64,000 nucleotides of DNA from Candidatus Woesearchaeota archaeon (lineage in GTDB: Archaea > Nanobdellota > Nanobdellia > Woesearchaeales > WAPJ01). Both the position numbers and the translations under genes were made by a program. The stretch lies in contig JBLKOQ010000001.1 in NCBI GenBank assembly GCA_047602885.1, positions 10,016 through 74,015 on the forward strand, in the 5' to 3' direction. Under the pieces are notes generated by a model that was not told where the DNA came from, did no database searches, and saw nothing but the letters and a program-made list of their open reading frames with translations. Positions within the stretch are counted from its first letter, which is position 1. Each line of letters begins with the position of its first letter. Shown in pieces: positions 2,145-52,966 of the stretch.

Positions 2145-2171
2145 TGTTAATATTATTAGGATGATGCAATA

Positions 2172-8287: not shown

Positions 8288-8288
8288 A

Positions 8289-9143
8289 TTGATCATAATG
8301 GACATCAAAAGAATAATAAAAATGTCAAGGCCGAGATTCTGGCTATATCTGGCAGGAACATTCATGGTAGGATACGCTTACGGAATAAATGATGTTTCAT
8401 CACTGTTACAACCATCATTCATTATACCATTCCTAATATTCCTGATACCAGCAAACATATTCGTATACGGTATTAATGATATTGCAGACAGGGAGATGGA
8501 CAAGAACAATCCAAAAAAGGATGACAATAAAGAGAGTGCTGTAAGGAAAGGAGAGGAGAAGACTATTGCGATAACAGTATGGGCAAGCCTCATAATAATG
8601 ATAACAGGACTCATGTTTTATACTGACATTACAGGAATGATATTATTGGCTGTATTTATCATATTAGGGGCAGGATATAGCCTAAAACCATTACGTCTTA
8701 AAGAAAAACCTTTCCTGGACTTTCTGTCAAACTCATTCTATATAATCCCAGGAATAATAGGATATTATATAGCATCAAACAGCGTGCCTCCCATGATAAT
8801 ATGGCTTATGGGAATAAGCTGGACGGGAGCAATGCACCTCTACAGTGCAATACCAGACATCATCCCAGACAAGAAGTCAGGAATAATGACCGCTGCAACA
8901 GTACTCGGACACAAGAACAGCCTATTATATTGTTCATTATTATGGAGTCTTTTTGTATTGTCACTCATAATACTTGAGGTACACATAATACTATTATTGG
9001 CAAGCCTTACTTATGTAATAATACCACTAATACTAATGTTCATGCCACAAGAAAGCGTTACGAGAGCATACTGGAAATATCCTTACATCAACGCTTTTAT
9101 AGGGATGCTGTTCTTTCTTAACGCAGTACTAATGATAATATGA
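8289..9143 (+). CDS. UbiA-family prenyltransferase, likely lycopene elongase-type given its carotenoid context
   Basis: NDIADREMD motif (UbiA NDxxDxxxD), about 8 TM helices; immediately after crtB. Confidence 0.6.
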   Translation: MIIMDIKRIIKMSRPRFWLYLAGTFMVGYAYGINDVSSLLQPSFIIPFLIFLIPANIFVYGINDIADREMDKNNPKKDDNKESAVRKGEEKTIAITVWASLIIMITGLMFYTDITGMILLAVFIILGAGYSLKPLRLKEKPFLDFLSNSFYIIPGIIGYYIASNSVPPMIIWLMGISWTGAMHLYSAIPDIIPDKKSGIMTAATVLGHKNSLLYCSLLWSLFVLSLIILEVHIILLLASLTYVIIPLILMFMPQESVTRAYWKYPYINAFIGMLFFLNAVLMII

Positions 9144-9152
9144 GATGATACT

Positions 9153-9932
9153 ATGAACAGGGAAAAGAATGTCATACCAATAATACCCTCATTATTCATA
9201 TTTACCATAATACTAATAGCATTTTCAGGACTTATGACAGGACTAGGATACGAGCTTAGAGGGCATGGCATAATAGCAATGACACTAACATTCCTCATAG
9301 GACTCCCTACCATAATAGCAGTAGGCAAGTATAAGGAAGGAATAAGACTATTGTTAATACTTGGAATATACACTTATATCATAGAATCCATCGGAGTAAT
9401 AACAGGGTATCCTTACGGGAGATTCTATTATGGGGAGATGATGGGATACAACCTATTTGGCATAGTTCCTATAGTACTGCCACTAGCATACATGCCACTA
9501 GCTATAGGCGCATATTATATTGCAGACAAACTATCTCCCAATAAGGCCATGATAATAACACTTAAGATAATGATGCTATTGTTGTTCGATTTAGTTTTGG
9601 ATCCTGGGGCTGCGGCTCTCGGATACTGGATATGGGAAAATTCTGGAGCATACTATGGGATACCACTAACCAATTATATAGGATGGATTATAAGCAGCCT
9701 TATTACAGCACTGATATGCTCATATCATTATAAGAGCATTAGAAAAGCCAATCCTAAACTAATACTTGCAAGCCCATTATTGTTCATGGTATACTGGACA
9801 TTCACAGTAATAGGCCTTGGGATGATAATACCAAGCATTATAGGAATAATAACTATTATAGTATTAGGAGGGTTTATAGTAAGTCCCAAAGCAAGAAGAT
9901 ACCATCATGGCAATACCTTTAAAAGCAAATAA
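9153..9932 (+). CDS. carotenoid-biosynthesis-associated integral membrane protein (CruF-like hydratase candidate)
   Basis: Polytopic membrane protein with TGYPYGRFYYG motif, sited after the UbiA gene as lyeJ-cruF is in haloarchaeal C50 carotenoid clusters; assignment by context. Confidence 0.4.
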   Translation: MNREKNVIPIIPSLFIFTIILIAFSGLMTGLGYELRGHGIIAMTLTFLIGLPTIIAVGKYKEGIRLLLILGIYTYIIESIGVITGYPYGRFYYGEMMGYNLFGIVPIVLPLAYMPLAIGAYYIADKLSPNKAMIITLKIMMLLLFDLVLDPGAAALGYWIWENSGAYYGIPLTNYIGWIISSLITALICSYHYKSIRKANPKLILASPLLFMVYWTFTVIGLGMIIPSIIGIITIIVLGGFIVSPKARRYHHGNTFKSK

Positions 9933-15685: not shown

Positions 15686-16324
15686 ATGCAAACCAATATA
15701 AATGATACTATTATAGTATCAATTGATACTAAAATGGAAACGAAATTAAGGATTATAAACAGGATAGACAGGAAAAGCGGCGGAGTGCACATAAGGCAAC
15801 TGGCAAGAGAGGCTAATACAAGCTATAATAATGCAGTAAGAAACATCAGGATACTCGAAAAAGAGAATATTGTAAGAAGAATAAAAGATGCCAACCTCAT
15901 AAAAATATCCCTAAAAGACAATCCTATGACAATAGCATACCTCAAAAAAGTTCATACAGAAAAATACTATAATCTTCCACGAAGAGCAATATTAGCTGTG
16001 AATGAACTAATAAAAGAAATCATCCCAAAACCCCTAATATGCCTAATATTCGGATCATACGCCCGGGGAGATTACCACAAGGATTCGGACATCGACCTGC
16101 TGCTTGTATTCCAGAATGTACAGTCATCAATAAATATAGAAAGACTGGCAAAGGCTATAGGTATGAGAAACAATATAGTTATCAGTCCAATTTACATGAA
16201 CTACAAGGAATATTCTACCAACTTTCTAAACGTAGAACACGATTTCTCTAAAGAAATAAGAAATGACACGATAATAGTTTTAGGACTAGAACACTATTAT
16301 GAGCTATACTGGAGAATATTATAA
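15686..16324 (+). CDS. winged-HTH + minimal nucleotidyltransferase (MNT) domain protein, paralog 1 of 4
   Basis: GSYARGDYHKDSDIDLLLVF polymerase-beta-type NTase motif (GS...DxD) after N-terminal wHTH. Confidence 0.65.
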   Translation: MQTNINDTIIVSIDTKMETKLRIINRIDRKSGGVHIRQLAREANTSYNNAVRNIRILEKENIVRRIKDANLIKISLKDNPMTIAYLKKVHTEKYYNLPRRAILAVNELIKEIIPKPLICLIFGSYARGDYHKDSDIDLLLVFQNVQSSINIERLAKAIGMRNNIVISPIYMNYKEYSTNFLNVEHDFSKEIRNDTIIVLGLEHYYELYWRIL

Positions 16325-19744: not shown

Positions 19745-19787
19745 TACAAAAATATCATAATAGACTTATAAATACTTCTATCAGAAG

Positions 19788-19922
19788 GGCTCTGTTGCAA
19801 ATCTCAGAAAAAGTGTGCTATGCGCCACCCCGCAGGGGGCATCCCCCGGCACATCAGCGTCAAGCGTGAACGTTCGTTCCCGCTCCAGCTGACGGCTGCC
19901 GCACACTATTTGCAACAGAGCC
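19788..19922. mobile_element. MITE-like element copy 1 (GC-rich core, 15-bp inverted termini GGCTCTGTTGCAAAT, TSD TATCAGAAG)
   Basis: Terminal inverted repeats; direct repeats at 19779-19787 and 19923-19931; about 60% GC island in AT-rich DNA; homologous to the copies at 26981 and 52831. Confidence 0.55.
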
Positions 19923-19940
19923 TATCAGAAGATTCAATCC

Positions 19941-26932: not shown

Positions 26933-26980
26933 CCTATACTACAGGCAATAACCATGTTATATATAACTTGTGAATTAAAT

Positions 26981-27115
26981 GGCTCTGTAGAAAATGTCCG
27001 AAAAAATGTGCTATGCGCCACCCCGAAGGGGTCATCCCCCAGCGCATCAGCGTCAAGCAAGAACATATGTTCTTGCTCCAGCTGACGGCTGCCGCACACT
27101 TTTTACTGCAGAATC
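26981..27115. mobile_element. MITE-like element copy 2 (same GC-rich core; TSD GAATTAAAT / GAATCAAAT)
   Basis: GGCTCTGTAGAAAAT ... TTTTACTGCAGAATC inverted termini; imperfect 9-bp direct repeats at 26972-26980 and 27116-27124; core about 85% identical to copies 1 and 3. Confidence 0.55.
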
Positions 27116-27118
27116 GAA

Positions 27119-27871
27119 TCAAATATCTATAATCTTCTCTACTTGGGTAGCAAACACTATCCACAATAACAATCCAGCACTAATCATCAGTCCAATAGCA
27201 TATCCTATAGGAGCATACAGCATGAATATTCCAAACAATCCTACAGCAGCCAGTAATGCCCAGTACATAGGATTATGGTATATAGTATAGAATCCTCCCC
27301 CATTAGGGATTGGAATAACATTAGCAAGACTGGTCCATACCATAGCTACTATAATGGCATTGGTTACAGGATTGCTAAAACCGAATATTATTATGAACAG
27401 CATGGCGATAAAGAGGTTAGAGAGCATACCTGCAAAACCCATCTTGGCATAGTCTGAAAGATTAATGCCGTGCCTGAACTTTCCTGTCCTCTGATACCTC
27501 AATATCTTAGCTTCCATGTCAGGAACGAATATTAACGGTGCAAGGCCTGCAGAGAATATGCCCACAAACAGTCCTGCGGCTATCTTCCAAGGAGAATACA
27601 ATACTTTTACATCAAAACCCTTATGCAAAGCCCAAGCCTTCTGTACCAATACATTAAGATATATTGCTATTCCGGCAGCGATAATTGCAAGCAGCATTGC
27701 CATGGACTGCCTTGCAGGATCAACAGGAAGGAATTCCCTAAAAATATTATAGTCCTCAAAGCCCAATACGAAGCCGCCTACAGCAATAAAAGCTATAATA
27801 ATCTTATTCTCATCCCATCGTGGAATGCAATACTTCTGGTAGTCGTGCCACCATCCTGAAAGGCTGAACAT
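27119..27871 (-). CDS. hypothetical integral membrane protein (6 TM)
   Basis: 250-aa ORF; MITE copy 2 abuts its stop codon. Confidence 0.4.
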   Translation of the reverse strand: MFSLSGWWHDYQKYCIPRWDENKIIIAFIAVGGFVLGFEDYNIFREFLPVDPARQSMAMLLAIIAAGIAIYLNVLVQKAWALHKGFDVKVLYSPWKIAAGLFVGIFSAGLAPLIFVPDMEAKILRYQRTGKFRHGINLSDYAKMGFAGMLSNLFIAMLFIIIFGFSNPVTNAIIVAMVWTSLANVIPIPNGGGFYTIYHNPMYWALLAAVGLFGIFMLYAPIGYAIGLMISAGLLLWIVFATQVEKIIDI

Positions 27872-28024: not shown

Positions 28025-28525
28025 TTACAATAATAATATCTCTTGGGTTTTGTTCATAAATCCTATGACTTTGCTCTCATATTCTAATATCTTATCATTC
28101 CTAAAACCTATATTAGTGTTATAACTCGCTTTATGCCTGTCATATTTTAAGTCATAATACAATTGTGCGTCCTCCCTATTGATAGACAATTCGTATAATA
28201 AGTCCGCTTCATCTCTTGTCACAAGATACTCTTTTATGAGTATGAGCATAGTCGCATAGTGGTTTTTGGAATAATATCTTCTGTTGGTAATTAAGCTCAG
28301 TGCGCAATGGTAGAATGCATAATACAATATTACTATGAGCCAGTCTGCAAAATTGGTATGGATTTTGTTTATACTATAAAACCTCATATTGTGCTTGGCC
28401 TTATTAGCATGCGAAAAAGCAAGTTCCTTATTCTCCTTAATAATCCTAATCTGTTTTTGCGATTGCAGTATGCTTATCTCGGTCTCCAGATAATGTTTGT
28501 CTGCAAATAGTCGTTCGATATTCAT
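28025..28525 (-). CDS. HEPN-like helical protein, putative toxin partner of the upstream MNT gene
   Basis: 166 aa, 4-nt overlap with the NTase gene; Rx4-6H-like RRYYSKNH; homologous to 61571..62074 (YYAxY...S.NH..T.L). Confidence 0.4.
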   Translation of the reverse strand: MNIERLFADKHYLETEISILQSQKQIRIIKENKELAFSHANKAKHNMRFYSINKIHTNFADWLIVILYYAFYHCALSLITNRRYYSKNHYATMLILIKEYLVTRDEADLLYELSINREDAQLYYDLKYDRHKASYNTNIGFRNDKILEYESKVIGFMNKTQEILLL

Positions 28526-29088
28526 TCTATAATCGCCTCATAAAAATTCTGTTCCTTGTGTATTGGAAAACCTGTCTTTTTTGCCTGTATTATTATATCG
28601 TCATTACTTCGAATAAACTGCTCTGCAGAACAATAGAAGAGCGAGAGAGGATATTTTGAGGTTATCTCAGCCTCTTTCCTGCGCTTATCAAGGTCAGTTT
28701 TTTTATAGTACACTATGAGGAGGTCTATATCGCTGTTTTGATTCTGATCTCCGGTCGATGCAGAACCGAACAGAACTATAGTGTATATGCTTATGGGCAA
28801 GTCTTTGAGGAATGTCCTGAGAGGGCTCTTAACACCAATATTTAATGAATTGAATTTGCGTATTGCTATCTCTGAGAACTTGATTGCAATAATCTTTTTA
28901 TCACTAATAGAATAGTATACGTTTTGCCTGGTCTTTTCAGTTTTTAGTATGCCTTGCCTACTCATTCTGGCAAGAGTGTTCTGCAAAGAACTATGTGATA
29001 GCATAGTAGTTTCCTTAATCTGGTTATAGTACATCTTTTCTCCCTTCTGCACAAAGTATGCGTTGTATATTCTGTCTTCCGGTTTCAT
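28522..29088 (-). CDS. winged-HTH + minimal nucleotidyltransferase (MNT) protein, paralog 2
   Basis: LFGSASTGDQNQNSDIDLLIVY NTase motif, N-terminal wHTH. Confidence 0.65.
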   Translation of the reverse strand: MKPEDRIYNAYFVQKGEKMYYNQIKETTMLSHSSLQNTLARMSRQGILKTEKTRQNVYYSISDKKIIAIKFSEIAIRKFNSLNIGVKSPLRTFLKDLPISIYTIVLFGSASTGDQNQNSDIDLLIVYYKKTDLDKRRKEAEITSKYPLSLFYCSAEQFIRSNDDIIIQAKKTGFPIHKEQNFYEAIIE

Positions 29089-32321: not shown

Positions 32322-32903
32322 CTATCTTATCATCTCATAGAAATATTCCGTTCCGTGCAATATAATATTATTATTAATCGCTTCTGAGCCCACAGTAAAT
32401 TCTTTAGACATACTCATAGACTTGAATTCTGTTTCATTAAAAACGTTGATATGTAGAGGCAGTGGTATAGTGGATGATATGCTCATTATTTCTTTATTCA
32501 TAATTTCTTCTAGACCATCGGGTATGATGAACAATAGATCAATATCAGAATGTCTTGTTGGGTTTCTTTTAGCATAACTTCCAAAAAGCAACAATACGAA
32601 GAATACAGTACTCATATTATTATAATAGCTTAAAACTGCTCTTATCGTCTTATTTCTTAGGATATCTTCTCTTCTATTATGCTCTGCTTCAAATATGTAG
32701 GGGTGCGGTTTTTTTACTAGTGTGACTTTGTGGGCATTTCCAAAAGGCTCTAATACTACTATGTTATTGTTTGCTAATCTCATAATTATATTATGCATGT
32801 TCTTATAATCCTTTTTTAGTATCTTGGCCAGTCCTCTAATGCTCAATCTCAGGTTATTGTAGTCCAATAATGCCTGGATAACTTTTACATCTGCTTTTTG
32901 CAT
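32322..32903 (-). CDS. winged-HTH + minimal nucleotidyltransferase (MNT) protein, paralog 3 (no HEPN partner)
   Basis: LFGSYAKRNPTRHSDIDLLFII NTase motif. Confidence 0.6.
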   Translation of the reverse strand: MQKADVKVIQALLDYNNLRLSIRGLAKILKKDYKNMHNIIMRLANNNIVVLEPFGNAHKVTLVKKPHPYIFEAEHNRREDILRNKTIRAVLSYYNNMSTVFFVLLLFGSYAKRNPTRHSDIDLLFIIPDGLEEIMNKEIMSISSTIPLPLHINVFNETEFKSMSMSKEFTVGSEAINNNIILHGTEYFYEMIR

Positions 32904-35421: not shown

Positions 35422-38400
35422 TTGGGCTTGAAACAAGTTGTAGTGCAAGTAACGATAGTAGTAGTTATAATAGCTGCGCTTATATTCACATTCTTTAGTA
35501 TTGGAGAGCCTACAATTACAGGTTATGCTGTATTTGAGAGCAGTGTTAGTAATGTCAGTTATGACGTGGAAAGGGTAGTGTTGCCACAAGAAACTTATAC
35601 TATTCAGTTGGAAGATAATGTTGTTGTAAGAGGAATAGTAATTAATGGTTATTATATTGCAAGCAAAGATTCTAGTATTATTGCAAGGCTTGATGAAGGG
35701 ACTATTAGTCATGAATTGAGGTTGAGAAGCAATGTTATTACTGGCATGGCTATCGGTGCTGGAGAAGTTGAGAGTGGTATGATAGAAGAAGACTTGGCTA
35801 ATAGGACTTTGTTGAGGTATGGTGATGGTCCTTATGATATCGATAATGATGGAATGGTAGGGAGACAAGGAGCAGTAGACTATTATGTTGAAACTAATGC
35901 TTCTTGTGTATTATGGAGTATTGTAGGGGATGATGTTGACCTATTCTGTCAGGGAACAATAGAATGCTGTGACAGTTATCTATTGGAGAGCATGGATGAC
36001 AATCCCAATTATTTAGTGTTGGATAGGCAAAGAGCAGGTGCTGACAGAGGAGAAGTATTGGCCAAAGCTGACGGTTATGATTTTAGTAGAATGTTGCCTT
36101 ATGATTTTACTGGTGCTGAGGAGAGACTGGTAAGATTGGATGATGTTTGTTTGGGAAGTTGTAATGTTAGGATGCAGAGCAGTAGTATAAGGATAGAGAG
36201 CAGTGCTTATTTGCATATAGACAGGATTATAGTATATTATGATGATTTGCCAGACGATGAGATATTTGATACAGAGGATGGCAACATAATAGAAGAAGTA
36301 TTACCAGAAAAAAGAGTCATAAGAGAAGAGATGATAGAATATATAGTGTATGAGTCAGAAGGAGGTATTATTGGAAGAACCGTCTCAGAACTAAAAAGTC
36401 ATTATGGTCTTAGCAGGGCATCTGAACGTTCAGCAAAGATATTTTCAATGGATTATGAGCATATCAGTGAAGAGGAAGAAACAGAGTATACCGAAGGGAT
36501 TAATGCTCATATAATTAGAGTATCATCAGAGCTTCTAAATCTAGTAACAGAAGAAAGCGTAAGAATCATAATATTAAATGAATCAGGAATATACTCAGAA
36601 TACGCCAATAATTTATCAGAGCTAAACGAAATACTACACTCTAAAGAAGTTATAACAGCTAGTATCGACAGACAAATAGAATTGTTAACACAAGATACTC
36701 TTAATGCATCAGGGTTTATATCAGTATATAATGAGTATGAGGTTTCTGGTTCTGGTGTTCGTGTATGTATTGTAGATACGGGTGTATCGGGTCATGTGGT
36801 TGAGAATATATCATATACTGGTGTCAATGTTCTTGATGGTACCGATGACATAATGGATTACCATGGCCATGGTACTCTTGTTTCGTACCCTTTGATTCGT
36901 GCATTACCTGATGCCCATTATGTGATTGTAAAGGCTTTGGATGATACTGGGATAGGATATGAGTCTGATGTTATTTCTGGATTGGATGCGTGTGCTGAAC
37001 ATGATGTTGATGTTGTTTCTCTTTCTATAGGAGCTGGATTGTATGATGGGTACTGTGATACTAACCTTGTATCAGAGCGTGTGAATGAACTTGTGTCTGA
37101 AGGAGTCTTGGTAGTTTCTGCTGCAGGTAATGAGGCTGGTCCTTATTTGAAGGCTCCTTCATGCGCTTCCTCTGCTCTTGCAGTTATTGCTTACACTGAT
37201 GATTCGTTATGGTATCAGTCTTCATACTTGGAAGGTCATGCAGTATTTGCCGCTCCTGGTGTTGTTGAGACTATTGGTCCTGATGGTTCTGTGGTTTTAT
37301 CTTCTGGTACGTCTATGAGTGTTCCTTTTGTTAGTGCAGCTGCTGGTTTATTGGTTGAGTATACTAATGACACGGGACTAGTGTTACGTAACAGACTGGT
37401 TGGCACAGGTGATCTGCTTGGTGATGAGTTCTTGTTTTCTCGTCTGAATGTTTCGAGGGCTTTTTCGGGTGAGATTACGAATGAGTTGTTGTATAATATT
37501 AGCGAGGGCGTTGAGGTAGAGGGGACTGTATATTATCGTGGTACGAGTTTTATTGCAGGAACTATCACCACAGGAAATGGGCATTCGTGTGGTATTCGTG
37601 CTGTTGATGGTCGTGTTTTGTGCTGGGGTAGGAATAACGTGGGTCAAATTGGCGATGGTACAACTGCAGGTCCTCGTACGAATCCTACTTTAACTACTGA
37701 TACTTCTGCATATACTTTTATTTCATCAGGCGAACAACATTCGTGTGGTATTCGTGCTAATGATTCTCGTGTTTTGTGCTGGGGTAGTAACGGGAATGGT
37801 GTGCTTGGTGATGGTACTACTGTTCAGCGTGAAAATCCTACTTTGATTAATGATTCTTCAGCGTATCTTACACTTGGGTTAGGTCAAGGTCATTCGTGTG
37901 GTATTCGTGCTAATGATTCTCGTGTTTTGTGCTGGGGTTGGAATGGGAATGGTCGACTTGGTGACGGTACGGATGAAGCTCGTTGGAATCCTACATTGAC
38001 TTCTGATACTTCTGCATACAGCGGAATAACTGCAGGTGCCCACTACTCGTGTGGTATTCGTGCTAATGATTCTCGTGTTTTGTGCTGGGGCACTAATAAT
38101 TATGGTCAGCTTGGTGATGGTACAGATGTTGTTCGTTGGAATCCTACATTGACTTCTGATACTTCCGCTTACCTACATGTTTCTGGAGGAGGTTGGCATT
38201 CGTGTGGTATTCGTGCTAGTGATTCTCGTGTTTTGTGCTGGGGTAGGAATAACGTGGGTCAGATTGGCGATGGTACTACCACCACTCCTCGATTGAATCC
38301 CACTTTAACTACTAACACGTCTGCGCATGGTACTGTTTCTGCTGGAAACGATTATTCGTGTGGTATTCGTGTCAATGATTCTCGTGTTTTGTGCTGGGGT

Positions 38401-41400
38401 GCTAATGATTATGGTCGGCTTGGTGATGGTACTACTACAGGTCCTCGTACAAATCCCACTTTGACTGCAGACTCTTCTGCATATGTAGCCGTTTCAGCGG
38501 GGGATTGGCACACTTGTGGTATAAGATCTTACGATGGTCGTGTGTTGTGTTGGGGGTATAACGAGTTCGGTCAGATTGGCGATGGTACCACTACGACTCC
38601 ACGTCAAAATCCAACGCTTACAAGCAACATGGCTCCATTCGCCGAAATTCCTTGGGTCTTTACAACATGCGAAGCAACTGGTCGCACTGGTCCTACTCAA
38701 GGTATGTGTGACGATGCATACGAATACTCTTATCTGAACAATAGTGTAACTGTATCTTCAGGCATACAATCATGGACTGTTCCTGAGACGGGATGGTATA
38801 ATGTTACTGCAGTTGGAGCTCAAGGAGGATACGGTGGGAGAACGGGTGTTGGGGGATACGGCGCTCTCATTTCAGGTGCTTTCTACTTCGAAGAGGGAGA
38901 GACAATCAATGTTCTCGTTGGTCAGAAAGGTGGAGATAACTCGTTTCGACCGGCAGGTGGTGGTGGAAGTGCAGTGTGGAAGGATACTGGAACCGAACTC
39001 CTCATCGTCGCTGGAGGTGGAGGAGCGTATGCAGTTGGAACAACGACCACCTACCAGGACCGAGCACACGCGAGCAACACAACAAGTGGGAAGGATGGAT
39101 TTGGTGCCACGGCTCAGAGCGTGGGTGGAACCGGAGGTCTTGGAGGTGCCGGAACAGGTAACCGAGCCTCTGGTGGTGGAGGATGGTTTACTGATGGTGG
39201 ACAGGGCACGACGGCTGACAGTCGTGGCCGATCCCTCTCAGGAGGGGGTCTTGGAGGTGGTGGTGCTGTAGCTGACGGTGGATTTGGTGGTGGCGGAGCG
39301 ACCGATAGCACGACGACATGGGGTGCTGCTTCTGGTGGTGGTGGGTACTCTGGTGGTGGGGGTGGGTATTCTAACACAAACGATGCTGAAGGAGCTGGGG
39401 GCGGTGGAGGATCATACAATTCTGGGTTGTTCCAGTATAACGTCGGAGGAGAGAACGCTGATCATGGCTTGGTCATTATCGAGCCATACGGTGATGTCTC
39501 ATTACTCACCGTGGGAGTTACTCCTTCTCCCGAAGCGAACGCTACCGATGATCTTCTTGGATATTGTACGAGTGATGTCATCGATGGATTCGACCGGATC
39601 GACTATGAGTGGAGACGTGACGGCATAGTCGAGTACATGGGAACGTACTTTAGAGCAGATACGATCACAGCGCATGAAGCTCACACTTGTGGTATTCGTG
39701 CTAATGATTCTCGTGTGTTATGTTGGGGACGCGCGGGTAGTGGTGAGATTGGGAATGGAAGCAAGCTACCACAAGTGCTTAATCCAACACTCACCTCTGA
39801 TACTGATCCTTACCTTCAAGTGAGCGTCGGATTCACTCATTCGTGTGGTATCCGCTATGACGGAAGAGTGCTCTGCTGGGGAAACAACGCTGAAGGGCAG
39901 TTGGGAACAAACGATACGACTGAACGACTCGTTCCTACTTTGATTGCGGATGATGCTGCCTACCATTCCCTCAGCGCAGGATACCGGATGAATTGTGCGA
40001 TACGTGCTAATGATTCTCGTGTGTTATGTTGGGGTGACAATGTATTCTCTCAACTCGGCAGTGGAGGTGGATCGGTGAGCGTTCCGAGGCTCATCAATGA
40101 TACCGCTTCCTACCTGATGGTTTCCACTTACAAGTACCACGCGTGTGGTATTCGTGCTAATGATTCTCGTGTGTTGTGCTGGGGGATGAACTGGTACGGT
40201 CAGGGTGGTAATGGAACAACTGACGAGTTCGTGTCATCCGAGACTCCGACCCTCACGACCGATAGTTCACCATATGTAATGGTAACAACAGGTGCCTCTC
40301 ATACGTGTGGTATTCGTGCTAGTGATTCTCGCGTGTTGTGCTGGGGTCGTAATAATAATGGGCAGCTTGGAATCGGTTCGAGCGGTACAAATGTCGGTAA
40401 CCCCACAACGACTTCAGATTCATCTGCATATCACTACATAGATGCTGGTTGGCAGTTCTCATGTGGCATCAGATCGTCTGATAATAGAGGTCTTTGTTGG
40501 GGGGATAATGGTGAGGATAAACTTGGTATCGGAACGACCGGTAATCGTGAAAACCCTACACTTATATCTGCTTCGTTTGCGATATCGTTGATTACTGCTG
40601 GTGAACGCCATGGGTGTGTGGTTCGCTCTTCGAATGGGCGTGTGTACTGCTGGGGACAAACTGCTGAAGGACGTACAGGAGATGGGGTAGGTATTGGTAC
40701 TGAGCACACACCGACGCTCACAACAGACACTTCCTCGTATGCGTACTTACCTGCTATTGCCTCTGGCGTGCAGTATAACCTCTCAACACTTGACTCAACG
40801 ATAACGAATGGTGGAGACTCATGGACGTTCTCATGCCGGATTACAGACGGTCGAACGACCTATCCATACGAGGAGAGTGCTACGATAACGATTGCAAACA
40901 TTATTCCGATTTATTCAAAGTTTGATGGTTCAACAACGAACTTTTCTGATGCTAGTGTTGTTCCTGACCTTTCAAGCGTGAGCAATCCGATTCTTGAGAT
41001 ATCCACGTTCGGACGCATCACATGGAAAGGTATGGTAAACGTTCCTAGTTCAGATTATGATTCTCATGTGCATATTGGTTATCGGTACATTTTTGTTAAT
41101 AGTAGCGCGTTGCATTCATCTCATGATTCGGGTTCGAATTTGAGCTTTTATGATACGGGCTTCGTGCATGCTCCTGTCATCCTCAAAGATAGTTCTGTGT
41201 GTGAACAACCCTTGTGTAACATGACTGGATTTGTTGATGGTTACGTGAATTACTCAGTGGCTGGTTTCTCAAACTACACGCTTGATTCTAATAGTCGATT
41301 GGAGATCTGGGATGGTACTGATCCTCAAGGAGGAAATAATTCGTATGAGGTTGGTGAATCGGTGCCTTTCTATGCAAATTATTCGAATCTGACTTCTGGT

Positions 41401-44400
41401 GAACCGATTTCGGGTTCGGGGAACGATTGTGAGATCCAATTTGATACTGGGAGCGGGTATGGGAGTTTTATAGAGATGGAATTTAACGCAACAAGTAACT
41501 TGTACGAGTACAACACCACATTTGGATCTGCAGGGACGTTCAGTTATAACGTGAGTTGCACTAGCACCCAAGGATATGAGAACCTGAGCGTGACTAATGA
41601 GTTCACATACAATCCTGCAAACTGTTTTGACAATTCGACGAGTCCTATACCAATTTGTACATGTACTGATCTTAGCAGGATGTGGGAGAACCTTACAGCA
41701 AACTATGAATTGCAGAATAATATAGACTGTAGTGATACTATTAATTGGAATGATGATGAGGGATGGCTGCCTGTAGGGACAACAGGTACGGGTTTTAGTG
41801 GTACGCTGGATGGGCAGGGATATAATATTACTGACTTGTTCATTGCTCGAAATAATGTTGGTTATCAAGGTTTGTTTGGTCAGTTAACTACAGGAGGAAG
41901 CATTACTGATTTAGGTTTGGTGAATGCGAATATCACCATAAAAGACACACTCAGTATAGTGACTCCATATATTGGGATTCTTGTAGGATATATCGATGGA
42001 GGCAGTGTCTCTGGATCTTATGTCACAAATAGTATTCTCTATAGTGATTTTCCCTCTACTGGTGGTCTTATAGGAGAAATGAGTGGTGGTAGTGTTGTCT
42101 CATCTTCTTTTGTTAGTGGTTCTAGTGTTTCTTCTTCTACTAGTAATGTTGGTGGTCTTATAGGAAGAATGAGTGGTGGTAGTGTGTCATCTTCTTATAC
42201 GGTGGATTCTAGTGTTTCTTCTACTGGTAGTAGTGTTGGTGGTCTTGTAGGATATATGCTGAGTGGTAGTGTTGTTTCATCGTCTTATACTATTGGTTCT
42301 AATGTTTCTTCTACTAGTACTCGGGTTGGTGGTCTCGTAGGAAGAATGTGGAGTGGTTCTAGTATTGTTGATTCTTACAGTACTAGTAATGTTTATGCTC
42401 TTGCAGGAGAAAACTTACAATATCATGGTGGACTAGTAGGACAAAACTATAGGGGAGTGATAAACAATTCTTATAGTACAGGAATAGTTAATAGTACACA
42501 TGATGATAGTGGTGGTTTTGTAGGAAGCGTAGATACAGGAGCTGCGACTTATGGTATGTATGGTAACTTCTGGGATAACCAGACAAGCGGTCGTAGTACT
42601 AGTGCTGGTGATAATGTAACAGGACTTACTACAGCGCAGATGTATAATATCAGTCAGTTCTTAGCGGCAGATTGGAATATTAGTGAGATTAGCGGTTATA
42701 ATAATGAGACTTGGTTTATTGATGATGGTAATGATTATCCTAGATTATGGTTTGAGTTTGATCTTGCTTTATTGGATATTGAGTCTGTAGGCATTATTCC
42801 AAGTCCTTTTGCTTTGGATGATGAGAATCTCGTAGGGTATTGTAGTGCTACTGGTAGTGAGAATTTTACGAGGTTGGATTATTTGTGGTATAAGGATGAT
42901 GTAGTGGAGTATGGGGGTGCTTATTTCAAGGAAGGAAGTATTAGTGCTGGTGGGGAGTTTTCTTGTGGTGTTCGTGCTAATGATTCTCGTTTGTTGTGTT
43001 GGGGTGCTAATTTTGTTGGTAAGTTGGGTATTGGTAATACTACTCATATGTATAGTCCTGTTTTGGTTGATTCTTCTGATGCTTTTTTGAGTGTTTCTGT
43101 GGGTGTTTCTCATTCTTGTGGTGTTCGTGCTAATGATTCTCGTGTTTTGTGTTGGGGGCTAAATAGTGAGGGGCAGTTGGGTATTGGTAATACTACTGAT
43201 ATGTTTAGTCCTGTTTTGGTTGATTCTTCTGATGCTTTTTTGAGTGTTTCTTTAGGTAGTTTTCATTCTTGTGGTGTTCGTGCTAATGATTCTCGTGTTT
43301 TGTGCTGGGGTGGTAATATTTATGGTCAGTTGGGTGTTGGTAATACTACTGATATGTTTAGTCCTGTTTTGGTTGATTCTTCTGATGCTTTTTTGAGTGT
43401 TTCTTTAGGTAGTTTTCATTCTTGTGGTGTTCGTGCTAATGATTCTCGTGTTTTGTGTTGGGGTGGTAATTGGGTTGGTCAGTTGGGTGTTGGTAGCGCT
43501 GTTTATGATTCGTGTTTTGATGGTTATGAATATTACGATTGTAGTTTGAATCCTGTTTTGGTTGATTCTTCTGATGCTTTTTTGAGTGTTATGGTGGGTG
43601 TTTCTCATTCTTGTGGTGTTAGGGCGAGTGATTCTCGTTTGTTGTGTTGGGGTGCTAATGCTAATGGTCAGTTGGGTGTTGGTAATACTACTGATATGTT
43701 TAGTCCTGTTTTGGTTGATTCTTCTGATGCTTTTTTGAGTGTTGGTCTTGGTTTTGGACATTCTTGTGGTGTTAGGGCGAGTGATTCTCGTGTTTTGTGT
43801 TGGGGACGTAATTTTGGAGGTCAGTTGGGTGTTGGTAATACTACTAGTCCTATTATGGTTCCTGTTTTGGTTGATTCTTCTGATGCTTTTTTGAGTGTTG
43901 ATGGTGGTTTTGGTGGTGGTTTTGGTGAGCAGCATACGTGTGGTGTTCGTGCTGTTGATGGTCGTGTTTTGTGTTGGGGTGATGGTTCTTTTGGTGCTTT
44001 GGGAACAGGCAATACTAGTTCTCAGTTGAGTCCGACTCTTACTATTGATTCGAGCAGTTATCTTAGGGGGCTTTCTCCGCAGACGACTTATAATGTTTCT
44101 TTGATAGGGAGTGGGTTGACTAGTTTGGGGGAGGAGTGGAAGCTTAGTTGTCGCGCTGTAAATGTTACTAGTGCGGGGGATTTTGTTAATTCTACTGTTA
44201 CTACGATTGATGAGGGTGAAGAGGGTTTGGATTGTGGTGTTATCGATGAGCCTGGAGAGTATATTATGAATGGCGACCTTGCGGCTACCGGAACTTGTAT
44301 TACTATTAATGTTAGTGATGTTTCATTAGATTGTCAGGGTCATACGATCAACTACTCTACAAACGATGACGAGGGCTACGGTATCCTGATATGGAGCCAG

Positions 44401-47400
44401 AGCGGGACGGTCGAAAACGTGAGTATCGCGAACTGTAACATCATCAAAGAGAGTCCTGGAGGGAGCTCAGGGAGTAGGCGCCCAGCTATCCTCGGATACG
44501 GCTACTCAGGTACTCCTTCAGGAGGTTTCACAAAATCAGGTGATGAGCATACTGTTGAGCAAGTAAATATATCGAACGTTACTATCACGACCGAGGGAGA
44601 TTATGCTCGAGGCATATTTGTCTTAAGTGGTCATACTTGGAGTGTCGAAGATGTCTCTATCACAACGTATGGAGATGATGCCCGAGGAATCTACAGCGAG
44701 AACTCTGATCATTGGAGTCTCAGGAGAGTTGATATCACGACCTTTGGAACTGTAGGGATAGGACTGTATACGATCGATGCAAACCACTACTATCTCAAGG
44801 ACATCGATATCACTGCTGCGAGCGCAGGCATGTGGATCCGCACGGGAAGTTCGAACTGGCGGGCAGAGAACATTTCGATAAATGCTACGCTTCAAGGTAT
44901 CGCGACATCGGACGGAGGTATGGCTCACATGAGTTTTTACAACTCTACGATCCACTCATCAGGAAGCCGGGGATTAGATACCAATCAAGGTACAGATAAC
45001 ATCAGCTTCTACGATTCTATTATCACCGCTCCATCAAGTGACGATGTATACATGCGTCTTGGTGATGCGAGTCGGCGTGTTACGTTCGTCAACGTGACTT
45101 TCAACCCTTCCAGTGTCACGTTCCATGACTCGACCTCAGGATTCCTCGACGTTGGATGGTACGTCGACTTTCTCGTAAACGATACTCTAAGTTATCGAGT
45201 TGAGAATGCTAATATTAGTTGGCAGGATTCTGGTGTTATGAGCAGTTTGAACCCTAACAGTACTGGTTGGAAATTAACTGATAGTGGTGGATTGTCTCTA
45301 AGAAATATATTGTATGAGTACTCGCAGAACCAAACTGCTAGGTACTATCATACTAACTATAGCTTCGACATAAGTAGCCCATCATACGCTTCCCTTGTTG
45401 GAGCGTCTAGGAACTTCACTACAAATACACAATTGGATTTTACTATAGAGCCATTGTCGTTGGAGTGTGGTGTTATTAGCGAGCCTGGCTCTTATGTTAT
45501 GACTACTAATCTTACTGCTACAGGCACGTGTTTCACTATTAATGTTAGTGATGTAATACTGGATTGTCAGGATTATACTATTAATTATTCGACTGCTGAT
45601 GAGGGTTATGGTATTTTGATTTGGAGTCAGTCTTCTAATGTGGATAATGTTACGATACAGAACTGTGTTGTTGTGCAGGGTTCTGGTGAGGGTGATGTGA
45701 ATAGTGCGCGTCCTGGTATTTTGGGTTGGGGTGTTAATAATGGTCCGAGTGGTGGTTTGTCGAGTGTTAGTGGTATTTTTTATGAGGTTACTAATGTTTT
45801 GGTTGTGGATTCTAGTATAGTAACATTGGGTGATCGTTCGGATGCTATTAGGGGTGCGGTTTCGTATGACTGGGATGTTGTGGGTGTGAATGTTTCTACT
45901 GCTGGTCAGCTTGCTTCGGGTGTTTTTGGTACTTTTACGGGGGGTTGGTTGTTGTCTGGTGTTGATTCTTTTACTACCGGTGATAATTCTAGGGGTTTTG
46001 CTAGTTGGGATTCTGTTGATTGGGAGATTGTGGATTCTCGTTCTGAGGTTACTACTTTTTATTCTTATCCTATTCGTGCTGAGGAGGGTTCTCATGGATG
46101 GGTTCTGTCCAATGTTTCTCTTATCTCTGATGGTTTTGAGTCTGATGGGCTTCATGTGATTGATTCGGATAATTGGATGGTTGAGGGTCTTTTTGTTTCA
46201 TCATCGGGCACTCAGGCTGATGCTTTTTATTTAGAGGATTCTGATGGTTGGATGGTTTATGATTCTGATTTGTCTAGTGGGTCTGCGTTTGATGTTGTTC
46301 TTAATCTTAGTGATTCTTCGTATCGTGTTGGTTTTGTGAATACGAGTTTTGATCATTCTAGCGTGTCTCTTCTTACTCCGGGCTGGCTTGATAGGGGTTG
46401 GTGGGTGGATGCGTATGTGAATGATAGTCTTGGCAGTCCTGTAGAGGATGCTAATGTCTCTTGGAATGATGCTGGTATTATTAGTGGGAATCCTAGTAGT
46501 AGTGGTTGGAATGTTACTGATGATAGTGGACTTAGTGTTAGGAATGTCTTGTTTGAATATTCTGAGAATCAAACTGCGAGATATTATAATACTAATTATA
46601 CTATTAATGTTAGTCATGAGGATTATGATGATCTTATAGGAGAGTCAAGGAATTTTACGGGTAATACGCAGTTGAACTTTACTTTTTTGGGTGAGTCTTT
46701 AGAGTGCGGTGTTATTAGTGAGCCTGGCGAGTATGTTATGACTTCTGACTTGTCTGCTGCTGGTACTTGTTTTACTATTAATGTTTCTGATGTTAGTTTG
46801 GATTGTGGGGGTCATACGATTAACTATAGTACTGGTGAGGAGGGTTATGGTATTTTGATTTGGAGCCAGGGTGGGTTGGTTGAGAATGTGAATGTTAGTA
46901 ATTGTAATATTGTTAAGGATAGTGAGGAAGGTAATAGTTCGAGTCTTAGGCCTGCCTTACTTGTTTATGGTCGTAGTGCTGTTCCTAGTGGTTCTATTAG
47001 TGGTATTGCGGGTACTGCTCATTATGTAGATAATGTGTCTATTAATAATGTTAATGCTAGTAGTAAGGGAAATTATAGTAGTGGGATTTTTATAGTGCGA
47101 GGATGGTATTCTTCTATTAGTAATGTTATGGTTGATACTGATGGTAATTGGAGTTTTGGGATATGGGGCGATTACTCTTCTTATTGGAATATTTATAATA
47201 CTAGTATTTTTTCGTTAGGGCTGTTTAATGTTGGTCTGTATGGGGTGGATTCTAATTTTTGGGTTTTAGATAGTTTAAATGTAGATGTTGAGTTCAATGA
47301 TGGTCATGGTATTATTGGTTTTCGGTCAAATTCTTGGATTCTTTATAATGTTACTGTTATTGCTGACGGTTCTACAGTTAGGGGAATATCTCTATGGGAT

Positions 47401-51568: not shown

Positions 51569-51999
51569 TAATACTAAGAACATTAGGCGAAAAACTGGAA
51601 TACTATTCCAAAGCAGTATTAAGGATAGGAATATCAATAGTATTCTTATGGTTGGGAGTATTGCAGTTAACTGACAGCCAATTATGGAAAGAATATGTTC
51701 CTGACATAATAATAGGAATAATCGCCAATCCAGAATTACTAGTGGTCATTAACGGAACAGTCCACATAGTACTAGGCACACTATTATTGGCAGGAGGATT
51801 CACTAGAATAACAGCGTGGGCATTATCAGCAAACCTAATAATAATATTATTAGGGATAGGATATGACATTATAGGAATACTAACACTCGGAATGCTCGCA
51901 GGAACAATAAGCATAGCAATGACAAGTAACGATCCTCTAAGAATAGACAATAGGATAAGACTATTCAGAAAAAAGAAAGATCCTATAAGCTTCGACTAG
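51565..51999 (+). CDS. DoxX-like small membrane protein (4 TM)
   Basis: 144 aa, 4 TM topology; 4-nt overlap with the cyt b5-like gene. Confidence 0.4.
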   Translation: MIILRTLGEKLEYYSKAVLRIGISIVFLWLGVLQLTDSQLWKEYVPDIIIGIIANPELLVVINGTVHIVLGTLLLAGGFTRITAWALSANLIIILLGIGYDIIGILTLGMLAGTISIAMTSNDPLRIDNRIRLFRKKKDPISFD

Positions 52000-52784: not shown

Positions 52785-52830
52785 AAACAGCCATGATAGA
52801 ATGATATTATTTAATACTATCCCTTAGATT

Positions 52831-52966
52831 GGCTCTCTAGTAAATGTCTGTAAAAGTGTGCTATGCGCCACCCCGTAGGGGCCATCCCCCGGCGGCATCA
52901 GCGTCAAGCAAGAACAGGTGTTCTTGCTCCAGCTGACGGCTGTCGCACACTTTTACTACAATGCCT
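52831..52966. mobile_element. MITE-like element copy 3 (same GC-rich core) 47 bp upstream of the EEP gene start
   Basis: GGCTCTCTAGTAAAT ... TTTTACTACAATGCC termini; imperfect direct repeats CTTAGATT / TTCAGATT at the flanks. Confidence 0.5.

What the first reader, a model, noticed from the sequence alone, without database searches (positions are those of the whole stretch)
26981..27115. GC-rich MITE core shows compensatory changes, a possible structured small RNA
The shared core runs (A)GTGTGCTATGCGCCACCCCG.AGGGG..CATCCCCC.GC.CATCAGCGTCAAGC-[hairpin]-TCCAGCTGACGGCTGCCGCACACT. The central hairpin differs between copies but keeps its pairing:
- GCAAGAAC-ATAT-GTTCTTGC in copy 2
- GCAAGAAC-AGGT-GTTCTTGC in copy 3
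- GCGTGAAC-GTTC-GTTCCCGC in copy 1
The outer stem CTGTAG/CTGCAG varies with G:U-type changes. The core is closed by GTGTGC ... GCACAC. This pattern favours a conserved RNA secondary structure, either a mobilised sRNA or a structured transposon-end RNA.
Basis: seen in the sequence. Interest (0 to 1): 0.6.

Follow-up and report, generated by a model that had tools for sequence, protein, structure and literature searches.

The report
Structured repeat inside an archaeal MITE
The GC-rich core is real: it belongs to a large, apparently undescribed family of tightly folded three-armed elements scattered through the genomes of tiny DPANN archaea. In this window it rides inside a small transposon, and whether it acts as RNA or as single-stranded DNA is still open.

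Summary
The window holds three copies of a 135-bp MITE (19788-19922, 26981-27115, 52831-52965), with inverted ends GGCTCTGTAG and 9-bp target duplications.

The GC-rich interior is much older and more widespread than this transposon shell. Its 21-nt centre, ACCCCGNAGGGGNCAWCCCCC, is nearly invariant in more than 150 distinct loci, almost all from Woesearchaeota/Nanoarchaeota MAGs and groundwater or sediment metagenomes. The stems around it have been completely replaced by compensatory changes.

The fold is a three-way junction: a P1/P2 stem with one bulged C, a variable hairpin H, and a 7-bp stem P4 capped by the 21-mer. It occurs in two circularly permuted forms and as head-to-head dimers.

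Mismatch types and folding energies show that the G-rich strand folds.

Rare cap variants change three positions together, which suggests a small triple helix.

Nothing matches in Rfam 15, the phage or plasmid collections, or the 8 of 10 allowed literature searches that I ran. No transposase, RT or HUH gene is nearby, and orientation relative to neighbouring genes is close to random.

My best reading is a REP/BIME-like non-autonomous repeat that folds as a single strand. RNA versus ssDNA is unresolved, and the function is unknown.

The parts
26972..26980 (.). Left target-site duplication of copy 2 (GAATTAAAT).
   Evidence: Read. It matches GAATCAAAT at 27116-27124 in 8 of 9 positions.
26981..27115 (-). 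MITE copy 2, the finding itself: 135 bp. The folded strand is the minus strand.
   Evidence: The covariance model for P4 plus cap hits 27012-27048 on the minus strand at 51.1 bits.
26981..26992 (.). Left terminal inverted repeat, GGCTCTGTAGAA.
   Evidence: The same 12-mer flanks the related element in L080, which has a perfect 9-bp target duplication.
27006..27011 (-). Helix H, 5' strand on the folded strand (GCACAU). It pairs with 27094-27099. The adjacent A/T runs extend the helix.
   Evidence: Segmentation. H covaries across the family (helix 4).
27012..27012 (-). Single junction nucleotide (A on the folded strand) between P4 and H.
   Evidence: In the 140-sequence alignment A3, 'A' is the majority base at the position just 3' of P4. 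RUAG (GTAG or ATAG) sits at the P4b/H boundary in 78 of 154 copies.
27013..27019 (-). P4, 3' strand on the folded strand (GGCGCAU).
27020..27040 (-). Invariant 21-nt cap. It reads ACCCCGAAGGGGTCATCCCCC on the + strand and GGGGGAUGACCCCUUCGGGGU on the folded strand. It contains the hairpin C10-13:G17-20 and a G1-4 run that is a proposed third strand.
27041..27047 (-). P4, 5' strand on the folded strand (AUGCGCU). The U.G at its inner end is a wobble only on the minus strand.
27048..27055 (-). P2 5' strand (GCUG) and P1 5' strand (UGAC) on the folded strand.
   Evidence: P1/P2 covary (helix 1).
27056..27082 (-). Variable distal hairpin that closes P1.
   Evidence: Sister sub-families carry a different sequence here but still a hairpin (L037, L080, L033).
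27083..27093 (-). P1 3' strand (GUCA), bulged C (27087), P2 3' strand (CAGC) and a 2-nt linker (GG), all on the folded strand.
   Evidence: The bulged C or U and the linker recur in type A and type B copies.
27094..27099 (-). Helix H, 3' strand on the folded strand (GUGUGC).
27106..27115 (.). Right terminal inverted repeat, partly decayed (CTGCAGAATC).
27116..27124 (.). Right target-site duplication of copy 2 (GAATCAAAT).
19788..19922 (-). MITE copy 1, the best preserved. It has 15-bp perfect inverted ends (GGCTCTGTTGCAAAT). The cap is at 19827-19847.
19779..19787 (.). Perfect 9-bp target-site duplication of copy 1 (TATCAGAAG), repeated at 19923-19931.
52831..52965 (-). MITE copy 3. The cap is at 52870-52890, P4 has a one-nucleotide bulge, and the ends and target duplication are decayed (7 of 9).

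Best explanation
**What it is.** The finding is one of three copies of a 135-bp non-autonomous transposon (MITE) with inverted ends GGCTCTGTAG... and 9-bp target duplications. Its interior belongs to a large, old family of single-strand-folding repeats of DPANN-type archaea.

**The fold.** On the G-rich strand (the window's minus strand) the element forms a three-way junction with three arms:
- P1/P2, a stem with one bulged C.
- H, a variable hairpin.
- P4, a 7-bp stem. In about half of the copies it carries a tandem G.A pair. It is capped by an invariant 21-nt G-run/C-run/G-run motif.

**How I think it works (inferred).** I think it behaves like bacterial REP/BIME/REPIN and other structured intergenic repeats. 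It would be a non-autonomous element that persists and spreads because its folded single strand is the active form. That strand would be ssDNA exposed during replication or transposition, and also RNA wherever a neighbouring gene reads through it. The invariant cap would be the recognition site for a conserved trans-acting protein. In this sub-family an outer shell of inverted repeats adds ordinary cut/copy-and-paste mobility.

**Shown versus inferred.**
- Shown: the repeat family, the fold, the folded strand and the MITE features.
- Inferred: ssDNA rather than RNA as the main active form, the trans-acting factor, and any effect on the host.
For: **MITE features**
- Three copies are 84-95% identical.
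- Copy 1 has 15-bp perfect inverted ends and a perfect 9-bp duplication.
- Copy 2 matches 8 of 9 in its duplication.
- The related L080 element has the same 12-bp end and a perfect 9-bp duplication.
- Short-read contigs break inside the element at all three sites.
- No transposase, RT or HUH gene was found among about 50 window ORFs.

**Family**
- The cap pattern was found in 28 genome loci, nearly all titled Woesearchaeota or Nanoarchaeota.
- The covariance model gave 181 hits in 0.9 Mb.

**Fold**
- P4: 7 of 7 pairs have double changes, and no shuffle reached the observed value.
- All helices: 20 of 24 pairs covary, and 92% of cells are paired against 67% in shuffles and about 40% in slid controls.
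- The same junction appears in two circular permutations.

**Folded strand**
- Mismatches are G.U and G.A on the G-rich strand.
- The G-rich strand has the lower MFE in 60 of 60 elements, with both RNA and DNA parameters.

**REP-like traits**
- The elements are intergenic, next to housekeeping genes, with no recurrent neighbour.
- Orientation is near random.
- 20 of 21 dimers are head-to-head, with a spacing mode of 55-56 nt.
- GTAG and CGTC tetranucleotides flank hairpin H in many copies. These are the tags of the two bacterial REP super-families, in which head-to-head dimers also dominate (PMC3733652).

**DNA-like structural features**
- 25 of 45 H loops are c(GNA)g triloops, and none is GNRA or UNCG. 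d(GNA) loops closed by C:G are the extraordinarily stable DNA mini-hairpins (PMC13037366, PMC3201870).
- Tandem sheared G.A pairs and a purine-type triple are also classical DNA motifs (my own knowledge).
Against: - No mobilising or binding protein was identified.
- RAYT-type transposases are reported only from bacteria. Archaea are reported to have only ordinary IS200 transposases (PMC6006769).
- The window copies move like a dsDNA (DDE-type) MITE, which needs no internal fold.
- The window copies carry ATAG and CGGC/CGAC rather than GTAG and CGTC.
- Near-invariance of the cap across very divergent genomes fits a conserved cellular partner, possibly an RNA-binding one, better than a fast-evolving selfish enzyme.
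- G.U wobbles, tandem G.A pairs, a bulged nucleotide and base triples are equally at home in RNA. tRNA has G.G-C and A.A-U triples (my own knowledge).
- No transcript or ssDNA data exist for these organisms here.
- My extraction of P1, P2 and H segments selected for pairing, so their percent-paired values are inflated. P4 is free of this bias.
Confidence: 0.45

Rival explanations
1. It is a genuine small structured RNA, such as a protein-binding RNA, a processing or stability module, or a new self-cleaving ribozyme. It would be made from the G-rich strand. The MITE merely carries it around, which is the first reader's 'mobilised sRNA'.
For: - Covariation is strong in every helix, while the junction nucleotides and the 21-nt cap stay fixed.
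- G.U and tandem G.A mismatches occur on one strand only.
- Circular permutation, many copies per genome and close pairs are typical of small ribozymes such as hammerhead and twister (my own knowledge).
- The triple pattern G.G-C / A.A-U has a natural RNA precedent in the tRNA core (my own knowledge).
- Near-invariance of the cap across lineages suggests a conserved cellular partner.
- There is a mild excess of copies co-oriented with the downstream gene, 45 against 25.
Against: - No Rfam family matches, even at E <= 10.
- I saw no conserved TATA-like box when I looked through the upstream flanks of 45 copies. I did no formal promoter scan.
- Orientation in co-directional gene pairs is 21 sense against 15 antisense.
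- Head-to-head dimers put one module in antisense on any single transcript.
- Hairpin loops are c(GNA)g triloops, not the GNRA or UNCG tetraloops usual in structured RNAs.
Confidence: 0.33
2. It is an ordinary selfish MITE whose palindromic interior has no function. In this view the apparent compensatory changes come from copying of different master copies, from gene conversion, or from a generic need for a hairpin during transposition.
For: - Inverted ends, target duplications, multiple copies and the absence of an ORF are all standard MITE features.
- The copies lie in AT-rich promoter-proximal spacers, as expected for insertion preference.
- MITE surveys report a high MITE density in a Woesearchaeal genome (PMC11602168).
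Against: - The core occurs in more than 100 loci without these inverted ends, in two permuted architectures and as dimers.
- The stems are entirely different between copies, yet 92% paired.
- 14 cap positions are invariant in 140 different sequences.
- Mismatches are restricted to G.U and G.A on one strand.
- A decaying neutral palindrome would not show this pattern.
Confidence: 0.08
3. It is mainly a bidirectional transcription terminator or insulator: a stable stem flanked by an A-run and a T-run, so that archaeal RNA polymerase stops on either strand.
For: - In the window copies helix H is flanked by A5-6 on one side and T4-5 on the other, so each strand reads stem followed by oligo-T.
- Several relatives (L019, L020, L011, L034, L068) show the same arrangement.
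- Oligo-T is the archaeal termination signal (my own knowledge).
Against: - Only 5 of 45 type-B copies have both an A5+ run upstream and a T5+ run downstream, and 10 have the T-run alone.
- Elements are not enriched between convergent genes: 7 of 56 single elements and 2 of 15 dimers with both neighbours called.
- Termination does not need a three-way junction or an invariant cap.
Confidence: 0.07

Closest known systems
Bacterial REP / BIME / REPIN repeats, mobilised by RAYT (TnpA-REP) HUH transposases
   Same: - Both are high-copy extragenic repeats that fold as a single strand and keep their hairpins by compensatory change.
- Both sit next to housekeeping genes in either orientation.
- Both form clusters and mostly head-to-head dimers, often of unlike partners. 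Here 20 of 21 dimers are head-to-head. PMC3733652 reports that HH dimers dominate and HT dimers are rare.
- GTAG and CGTC tetranucleotides lie at the foot of hairpin H in many copies.
   Different: - The fold is a three-way junction of about 90-130 nt with a 21-nt invariant cap, not a 20-40-nt palindrome.
- The hosts are archaea, where RAYT classes are not reported (PMC6006769).
- No flanked transposase gene was found.
- The window copies have ATAG and CGGC/CGAC instead of the tags, plus inverted ends and 9-bp duplications that REPs lack.
Structured bacterial MITEs (ERIC, Neisseria Correia/NEMIS, Rickettsia RPE, RUP/BOX)
   Same: - Both are small, ORF-less and bounded by inverted repeats and target duplications.
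- Both are dispersed in intergenic DNA and fold into long hairpins when transcribed (my own knowledge; also summarised in PMC3733652).
   Different: - Here the interior fold is far older than the MITE shell. It is shared with elements that have no inverted ends, is circularly permuted, and contains an invariant cap with triple covariation.
- No such core is described for those families, as far as I know.
Purine-type base triples: the tRNA core (G46.G22-C13, A9.A23-U12) and intramolecular purine-motif DNA triplexes (H*-DNA)
   Same: Cap position i (1 or 2) changes together with the base pair (9+i):(21-i). G goes with C-G, A with U-A, and U with G-C. This is a mirror-repeat pattern that no antiparallel helix explains, and it fits isosteric G.G-C / A.A-U triples. 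The comparison itself rests on my own knowledge.
   Different: - The evidence is only three variant classes in 8 distinct sequences, with one exception (L086).
- No structural data exist.
- A four-layer contiguous purine triplex capping a hairpin is not a described natural motif, as far as I know.
Circularly permuted small self-cleaving ribozymes (hammerhead types I-III, twister P1/P3/P5)
   Same: Both are three-way junctions found open at different helices, occur in many copies, are often paired, and have conserved junction and loop nucleotides with covarying stems.
   Different: - No hammerhead, twister, HDV, pistol or hatchet match in Rfam.
- The conserved nucleotides differ.
- Cleavage is untested.
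IS200/IS605-derived elements (PATEs; TnpB omega-RNA / sotRNA)
   Same: Both are structured, non-coding, transposon-associated sequences in archaea that act as a single strand (PMC4615843, PMC6006769).
   Different: - Those elements have no inverted ends or target duplications and sit at the 3' end of tnpB.
- Here there are 9-bp duplications, no tnpA or tnpB nearby, and no Rfam omega-RNA match.

Membership tests
MITE (non-autonomous DNA transposon) | Terminal inverted repeats | tested here: met
   Copy 1 has GGCTCTGTTGCAAAT / ATTTGCAACAGAGCC, 15 of 15. L080 has GGCTCTGTAGAA at both ends.
MITE (non-autonomous DNA transposon) | Target-site duplication of fixed length | tested here: met
   The duplication is 9 bp. 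Copy 1 (TATCAGAAG) and L080 (AAATTATCA) are perfect, copy 2 matches 8 of 9, and copy 3 matches 7 of 9.
MITE (non-autonomous DNA transposon) | Small, without ORF, in several dispersed copies | tested here: met
   The element is 135 bp. Three copies lie in 64 kb in unrelated contexts. Short-read contigs end inside the element at all three sites.
MITE (non-autonomous DNA transposon) | An autonomous partner (transposase gene) with the same inverted ends | tested here: inconclusive
   No partner was found in the window, nor paired around an ORF in the 1.1 Mb of fetched loci.
REP / REPIN - RAYT system | Short (20-40 nt) imperfect palindrome with an unpaired GTAG or CGTC tag | tested here: inconclusive
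   GTAG sits at the P4/H boundary in 68 of 154 copies, and CGTC at the H/P2 boundary in 37 of 54 type-B copies. The window copies have ATAG and CGGC/CGAC, and the unit is a three-way junction rather than a simple palindrome.
REP / REPIN - RAYT system | Inverted (head-to-head or tail-to-tail) dimers, with head-to-tail dimers rare | tested here: met
   Among relatives, 20 of 21 close pairs are head-to-head. The three window copies are singletons.
REP / REPIN - RAYT system | A single-copy RAYT (HUH Y1) gene flanked by the repeats | tested here: not met
   No Y1/HUH family was listed for about 50 window ORFs or for the 10 ORFs lying between element pairs. The 99-neighbour scan lists only the top 25 of 171 families, and none of those was Y1/HUH. 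Only short flanks were available, so absence from the genome is not shown.
Any described RNA family (Rfam 15, including hammerhead, twister, HDV-like, HEARO / omega-RNA, riboswitches) | A covariance-model match | tested here: not met
   There were 0 matches at the gathering threshold in the window and in 19 loci. There were 0 at E <= 10 on copy 1 and 0 at E <= 0.1 on 14 further loci.
Cis-regulatory RNA (riboswitch or leader) | Consistent position and orientation upstream of a particular gene family | tested here: not met
   Neighbours are unrelated housekeeping genes. Orientation relative to neighbours is close to random.
IS200/IS605-derived PATE / omega-RNA | No inverted ends, no target duplication, and adjacency to tnpB or tnpA | tested here: not met
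   Inverted ends and 9-bp duplications are present. No OrfB or Y1 transposase appears in the families listed for neighbours; one search lists only the top 25 of 171 families.
Archaeal oligo-T terminator element | A stem followed by T5 or more, as a family-wide feature | tested here: not met
   Runs of T4-T6 are present in the window copies. Only 10 of 45 type-B relatives have T5+ downstream, and 5 of 45 have both the A-run and the T-run.

The most novel reading that the evidence does not exclude
The 21-nt cap is a natural four-layer purine-type triple helix (G.G-C, with isosteric A.A-U/T and U.C-G variants). It crowns a three-way junction that defines a DPANN-wide, circularly permuted repeat family. 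That family would be either the first archaeal counterpart of the REP/RAYT system, folded as ssDNA and handled by an unknown single-strand-specific enzyme, or a new class of small structured RNA or ribozyme.
Probability: 0.3. Interest if true: 0.85.

Novelty: new variant of a known kind. Interest (0 to 1): 0.66.

Why it matters
DPANN archaea have tiny genomes with very little non-coding DNA. Yet they keep many copies of a 90-135-nt element whose fold has been preserved by selection while nearly every stem nucleotide changed. That points to an unrecognised piece of their biology: a mobile-element system, an RNA, or a DNA-structure-dependent process.

The element also offers two things:
- A compact, testable candidate for a natural triple-helix cap.
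- A ready-made marker for DPANN contigs in metagenomes, and a known cause of their assembly breaks.

If a partner protein exists, it could be a new single-strand-specific nucleic-acid enzyme.

Tried and rejected
- **Riboswitch or leader.** Rejected, because there is no recurrent neighbouring gene and no orientation rule.
- **Known ribozymes and omega-RNAs.** No Rfam hits. A CUGAUGA in L006 is isolated.
- **K-turn at the tandem G.A in P4.** Rejected by eye, because there is no 3-nt bulge.
- **Bulge-helix-bulge splicing or circularisation motif at the outer stems.** Not present by eye. Copy 1 has a 1-nt / 10-nt asymmetric loop.
- **UNCG-tetraloop register for the cap hairpin.** Rejected, because the variants U10-A20, U11-A19 and G10-C20 fit only the triloop register.
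- **A simple two-hairpin switch** (G-run 1 or G-run 2 pairing with the C-run). This cannot explain why positions 1 and 2 track pairs 10:20 and 11:19, since the index sum is not constant.
- **CRISPR spacer in L056 containing the 21-mer.** This is a GC-rich bacterial array, and the spacer looks like an ordinary terminator with no P4, so it is a chance hit.
- **IMG/VR hits L153 and L154.** They have no P4 and are GC-rich, so they are chance hits.
- **Phage and plasmid collections.** No match.
- **RNAalifold on a MAFFT alignment of type-A copies.** It recovered only P4 plus an alternative cap hairpin, because the variable hairpins misalign. I therefore segmented by anchors.
- **Empty-site search.** I looked for copies of the flanking genes without the insertion and found only contigs that end in the repeat.
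- **Autonomous partner with the same inverted ends.** Not found in the held sequence.
- **Terminator as the general function.** Rejected.
- **Halophile origin, suggested by the carotenoid genes.** The proteome is not strongly acidic.

Full report
**1. The observation**

The region 26981-27115 is one of three + strand copies of a 135-bp element. The others are at 19788-19922 and 52831-52965. The copies are 84-95% identical. An invariant 18-mer from the core occurs three times, against none in 100 shuffles.

Each copy folds much better than shuffled controls on both strands, with z from -4.0 to -7.5. The minus strand is 6-9 kcal/mol more stable in every copy.

The copy-1 version of the 'central hairpin' has one real double compensatory change and one uncompensated mismatch. 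With three copies, that is suggestive and no more.

**2. It is a MITE**

- Copy 1 has 15-bp perfect inverted ends and a perfect 9-bp direct repeat, TATCAGAAG, on both sides.
- Copy 2 has GAATTAAAT / GAATCAAAT.
- Copy 3 is more decayed.
- A related element in a metagenome contig (L080) has the same 12-bp end, GGCTCTGTAGAA, and a perfect 9-bp duplication, AAATTATCA.
- Independent short-read assemblies that carry the flanking genes all break inside the element, at all three sites, as expected for a multi-copy repeat.
- About 50 ORFs of the window were scanned. None is a transposase, reverse transcriptase or HUH enzyme.

The window is archaeal. It encodes PriL and an archaeal-type TrpRS.

**3. The core is far more widespread than the MITE**

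The centre of the core, ACCCCGNAGGGGNCAWCCCCC, was used as a search pattern.

- One GTDB-species scan returned 28 loci, almost all titled Woesearchaeota or Nanoarchaeota. A few were titled 'Methanosarcinales' MAG contigs, and one bacterial hit looks like chance.
- IMG/VR gave only two chance hits lacking the enclosing stem.
- The phage and plasmid collections gave nothing.
- Rfam 15 gave nothing for the window, for 19 + 14 related loci, or for copy 1 at E <= 10.
- Literature searches found only a generic remark that a Woesearchaeal genome is MITE-dense (PMC11602168).

**4. The fold**

The 21-mer is always enclosed by a 7-bp stem, P4, whose sequence differs from copy to copy. I extracted P4 purely by position from 140 distinct sequences.

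- All 7 pairs show double-sided changes.
- 289 cells covary, against 96 +/- 9.5 in shuffles (0 of 500 shuffles reach the observed value).
- The covariation score is 0.42, against 0.14 in shuffles and at most 0.085 in slid controls.
- Positions 4-5 are either Watson-Crick pairs or a tandem mismatch.

Around P4 the same architecture recurs. The description below is on the G-rich strand:

- A long P1/P2 stem with one bulged C or U.
- No linker between P2 and P4.
- The capped P4.
- A single A.
- A variable hairpin H.
- A 2-nt linker (GU or GG) back into P2.

In most loci the ends of the element are at P1 ('type B', 45 clean copies). In the window copies and about 15 others the ends are at H, and P1 is closed by a variable hairpin ('type A'). 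This is a circular permutation of the same junction, down to the bulged C and the linkers.

On 59 type A and type B copies:

- 20 of 24 pairs have double-sided changes.
- 92% of cells are paired, against 67% in shuffles and about 40% in slid controls.

One caveat applies. I located the P1, P2 and H segments by maximising pairing, so their percent-paired values are inflated. P4 is not affected.

**5. Which strand folds**

On the G-rich strand the non-Watson-Crick cells are 22 G.U and 81 G.A, against 5 A.C and 0 U.C. On the complement these would be A.C and U.C clashes. The G-rich strand has the lower MFE in 60 of 60 elements, with both RNA and DNA parameters.

**6. The cap**

I number the cap on the G-rich strand as G1-G5, W6 U7 G8 N9, C10-C13, U14 N15 C16, G17-G20, U21. 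C10-13 pairs with G20-17.

Rare variants change three positions at once:

- A1 with U10-A20 (3 distinct sequences).
- A2 with U11-A19 (2 sequences).
- U1 with G10-C20 (3 sequences, 5 loci).

No case shows a changed pair with an unchanged position 1 or 2. There is one case of A1 with an unchanged pair.

Positions 1->10 and 2->11 run in parallel, so no ordinary helix explains this. It is the mirror-repeat logic of a third strand lying in the groove: G.G-C, A.A-U and U.C-G. The linker at positions 5-9 tolerates a 50-nt insertion (L005).

This rests on only three independent variant classes, so I rate the triple-helix cap at about 0.45.

**7. Context**

- Neighbours are unrelated housekeeping genes: ribosomal proteins, thermosome, GrpE, Hsp70, SRP54, TIM and RtcB.
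- Intergenic types are 36 co-directional, 13 divergent and 7 convergent.
- Within co-directional pairs the element is sense 21 times and antisense 15 times.
- Twenty-one close pairs of modules exist. Twenty are head-to-head, with a spacing mode of 55-56 nt, usually a canonical module next to a variant-cap module.
- A-run and T-run flanks, which would make a bidirectional archaeal terminator, are present in the window copies but in only a minority of relatives.
- In the window each copy lies 39-47 nt upstream of a minus-strand start codon, with an AT-rich TATA-like box in between. With three copies this is not significant.

**8. RNA or DNA?**

The features that usually argue for RNA are covariation, wobbles, tandem G.A pairs and a bulged base. 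They equally fit folded ssDNA.

Three points argue against an RNA gene or cis-RNA:

- I saw no conserved TATA-like box when looking through the upstream flanks. I ran no promoter scan.
- Orientation is near random.
- A head-to-head dimer has one module in antisense on any single transcript.

Two points favour DNA:

- 25 of 45 H loops are c(GNA)g triloops, and none is GNRA or UNCG. d(GNA) loops closed by C:G are the extraordinarily stable DNA mini-hairpins (PMC13037366, PMC3201870).
- Purine-type triplexes are classical for DNA (my own knowledge).

Two points favour RNA:

- The near-invariance of the cap across very divergent genomes.
- The tRNA precedent for G.G-C and A.A-U triples (my own knowledge).

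I put ssDNA-centred and RNA-centred readings at roughly 0.45 and 0.33.

**9. Comparison with known systems**

The closest analogue is the bacterial REP/BIME/REPIN world. Those are extragenic, high-copy, hairpin-forming repeats that form mostly head-to-head dimers, often of unlike partners, and carry GTAG or CGTC tags (PMC3733652). Here GTAG sits at the P4/H boundary in 68 of 154 copies, and CGTC at the H/P2 boundary in 37 of 54 type-B copies.

It is not a member of that family:

- The unit is a capped three-way junction.
- The hosts are archaea, where RAYT classes are not reported (PMC6006769).
- No flanked transposase was found.
- The window copies lack the exact tags and carry inverted ends with 9-bp duplications.

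As a MITE it passes every testable criterion except the autonomous partner, which could not be searched.

**10. Verdict**

The strand was wrong, and RNA is unproven.

The element is a new, well-supported structured repeat family with unknown function. The triple-helix cap and the REP-like or ribozyme-like readings are the parts worth testing at the bench.

Noticed in passing
window 35422-48882 (+): A single ORF of 4486 aa is built largely from 51-aa (153-nt) tandem repeats with a ...VLCWG.N..GQLG-like unit. They look RCC1-type. There are several repeat families, D1-D4. Such a giant surface-type protein is unusual in so small a genome fragment.
   Followed up: no
window 6001-9932 (+): A carotenoid gene cluster: CrtI/CrtD-type desaturase, phytoene synthase, UbiA prenyltransferase and carotenoid-synthesis protein PF04240. 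The layout resembles the bacterioruberin pathway. This is unexpected for a DPANN-like archaeon. The proteome is not strongly acidic.
   Followed up: partly
window 15686-16324, 28522-29088, 32322-32903, 61042-61662 and 61571-62074: Four minimal nucleotidyltransferase (NTP_transf_2 / Pol-beta) genes, one of which overlaps a HEPN gene. These are HEPN-MNT toxin-antitoxin-like modules, scattered through the window. One lies about 1 kb from MITE copy 2.
   Followed up: no
L018 697-788; L032 1021-1113; L078 1559-1650; and 18 other loci: These are head-to-head dimers of two unlike modules, one with a canonical cap and one with a variant cap. The spacing is fixed at 55-56 nt, and 20 of 21 pairs share this orientation. 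The central segment serves as a P1 strand for both modules, on opposite DNA strands.
   Followed up: partly
L040 5826-5862 (also L049, L063, L100, L124); L044, L064, L065/L119, L147, L151, L031: The same cap and P4 also top other, larger architectures ('type C'). These occur on GC-richer contigs, including soil contigs where the cap sits on a long hairpin inside a non-coding stretch of about 780 nt. Rfam has no match. Their taxonomic origin was not determined.
   Followed up: partly
L119 1890-2945: Two type-C modules in convergent orientation flank a 236-aa ORF (2038-2748, minus strand) that has no Pfam match. It is the only case seen where modules bracket an uncharacterised gene.
   Followed up: partly
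L056 1620-1664: A CRISPR spacer in a GC-rich array (repeat GCATCTCAAATAGAGAATTGAAAC) contains the 21-mer, but without the enclosing stem and followed by T6. I judged it a chance match to a terminator-like protospacer.
   Followed up: yes
window 19745-19787, 26933-26980, 52785-52830: Each MITE copy ends 43-47 nt upstream of a minus-strand start codon (19744, 26932, 52784). An AT-rich TATA-like box (for example TTATATATAA) lies in the spacer. All three copies have the same orientation relative to that gene. This could reflect an insertion preference for promoter-proximal DNA.
   Followed up: partly
window 51996-52784 (-): The gene immediately downstream of copy 3, on the folded strand, is an Exo_endo_phos (EEP) family nuclease. 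It has a sub-threshold hit to the 'endonuclease-reverse transcriptase' EEP model. It is probably an ordinary AP endonuclease.
   Followed up: no
L019 3780-3930: A type-A element without the GGCTCTGTAG ends is flanked by a 13-bp direct repeat, TTTAAAGGCAAAA. Either this sub-family makes a different duplication length, or its A/T-run ends blur the boundary.
   Followed up: no
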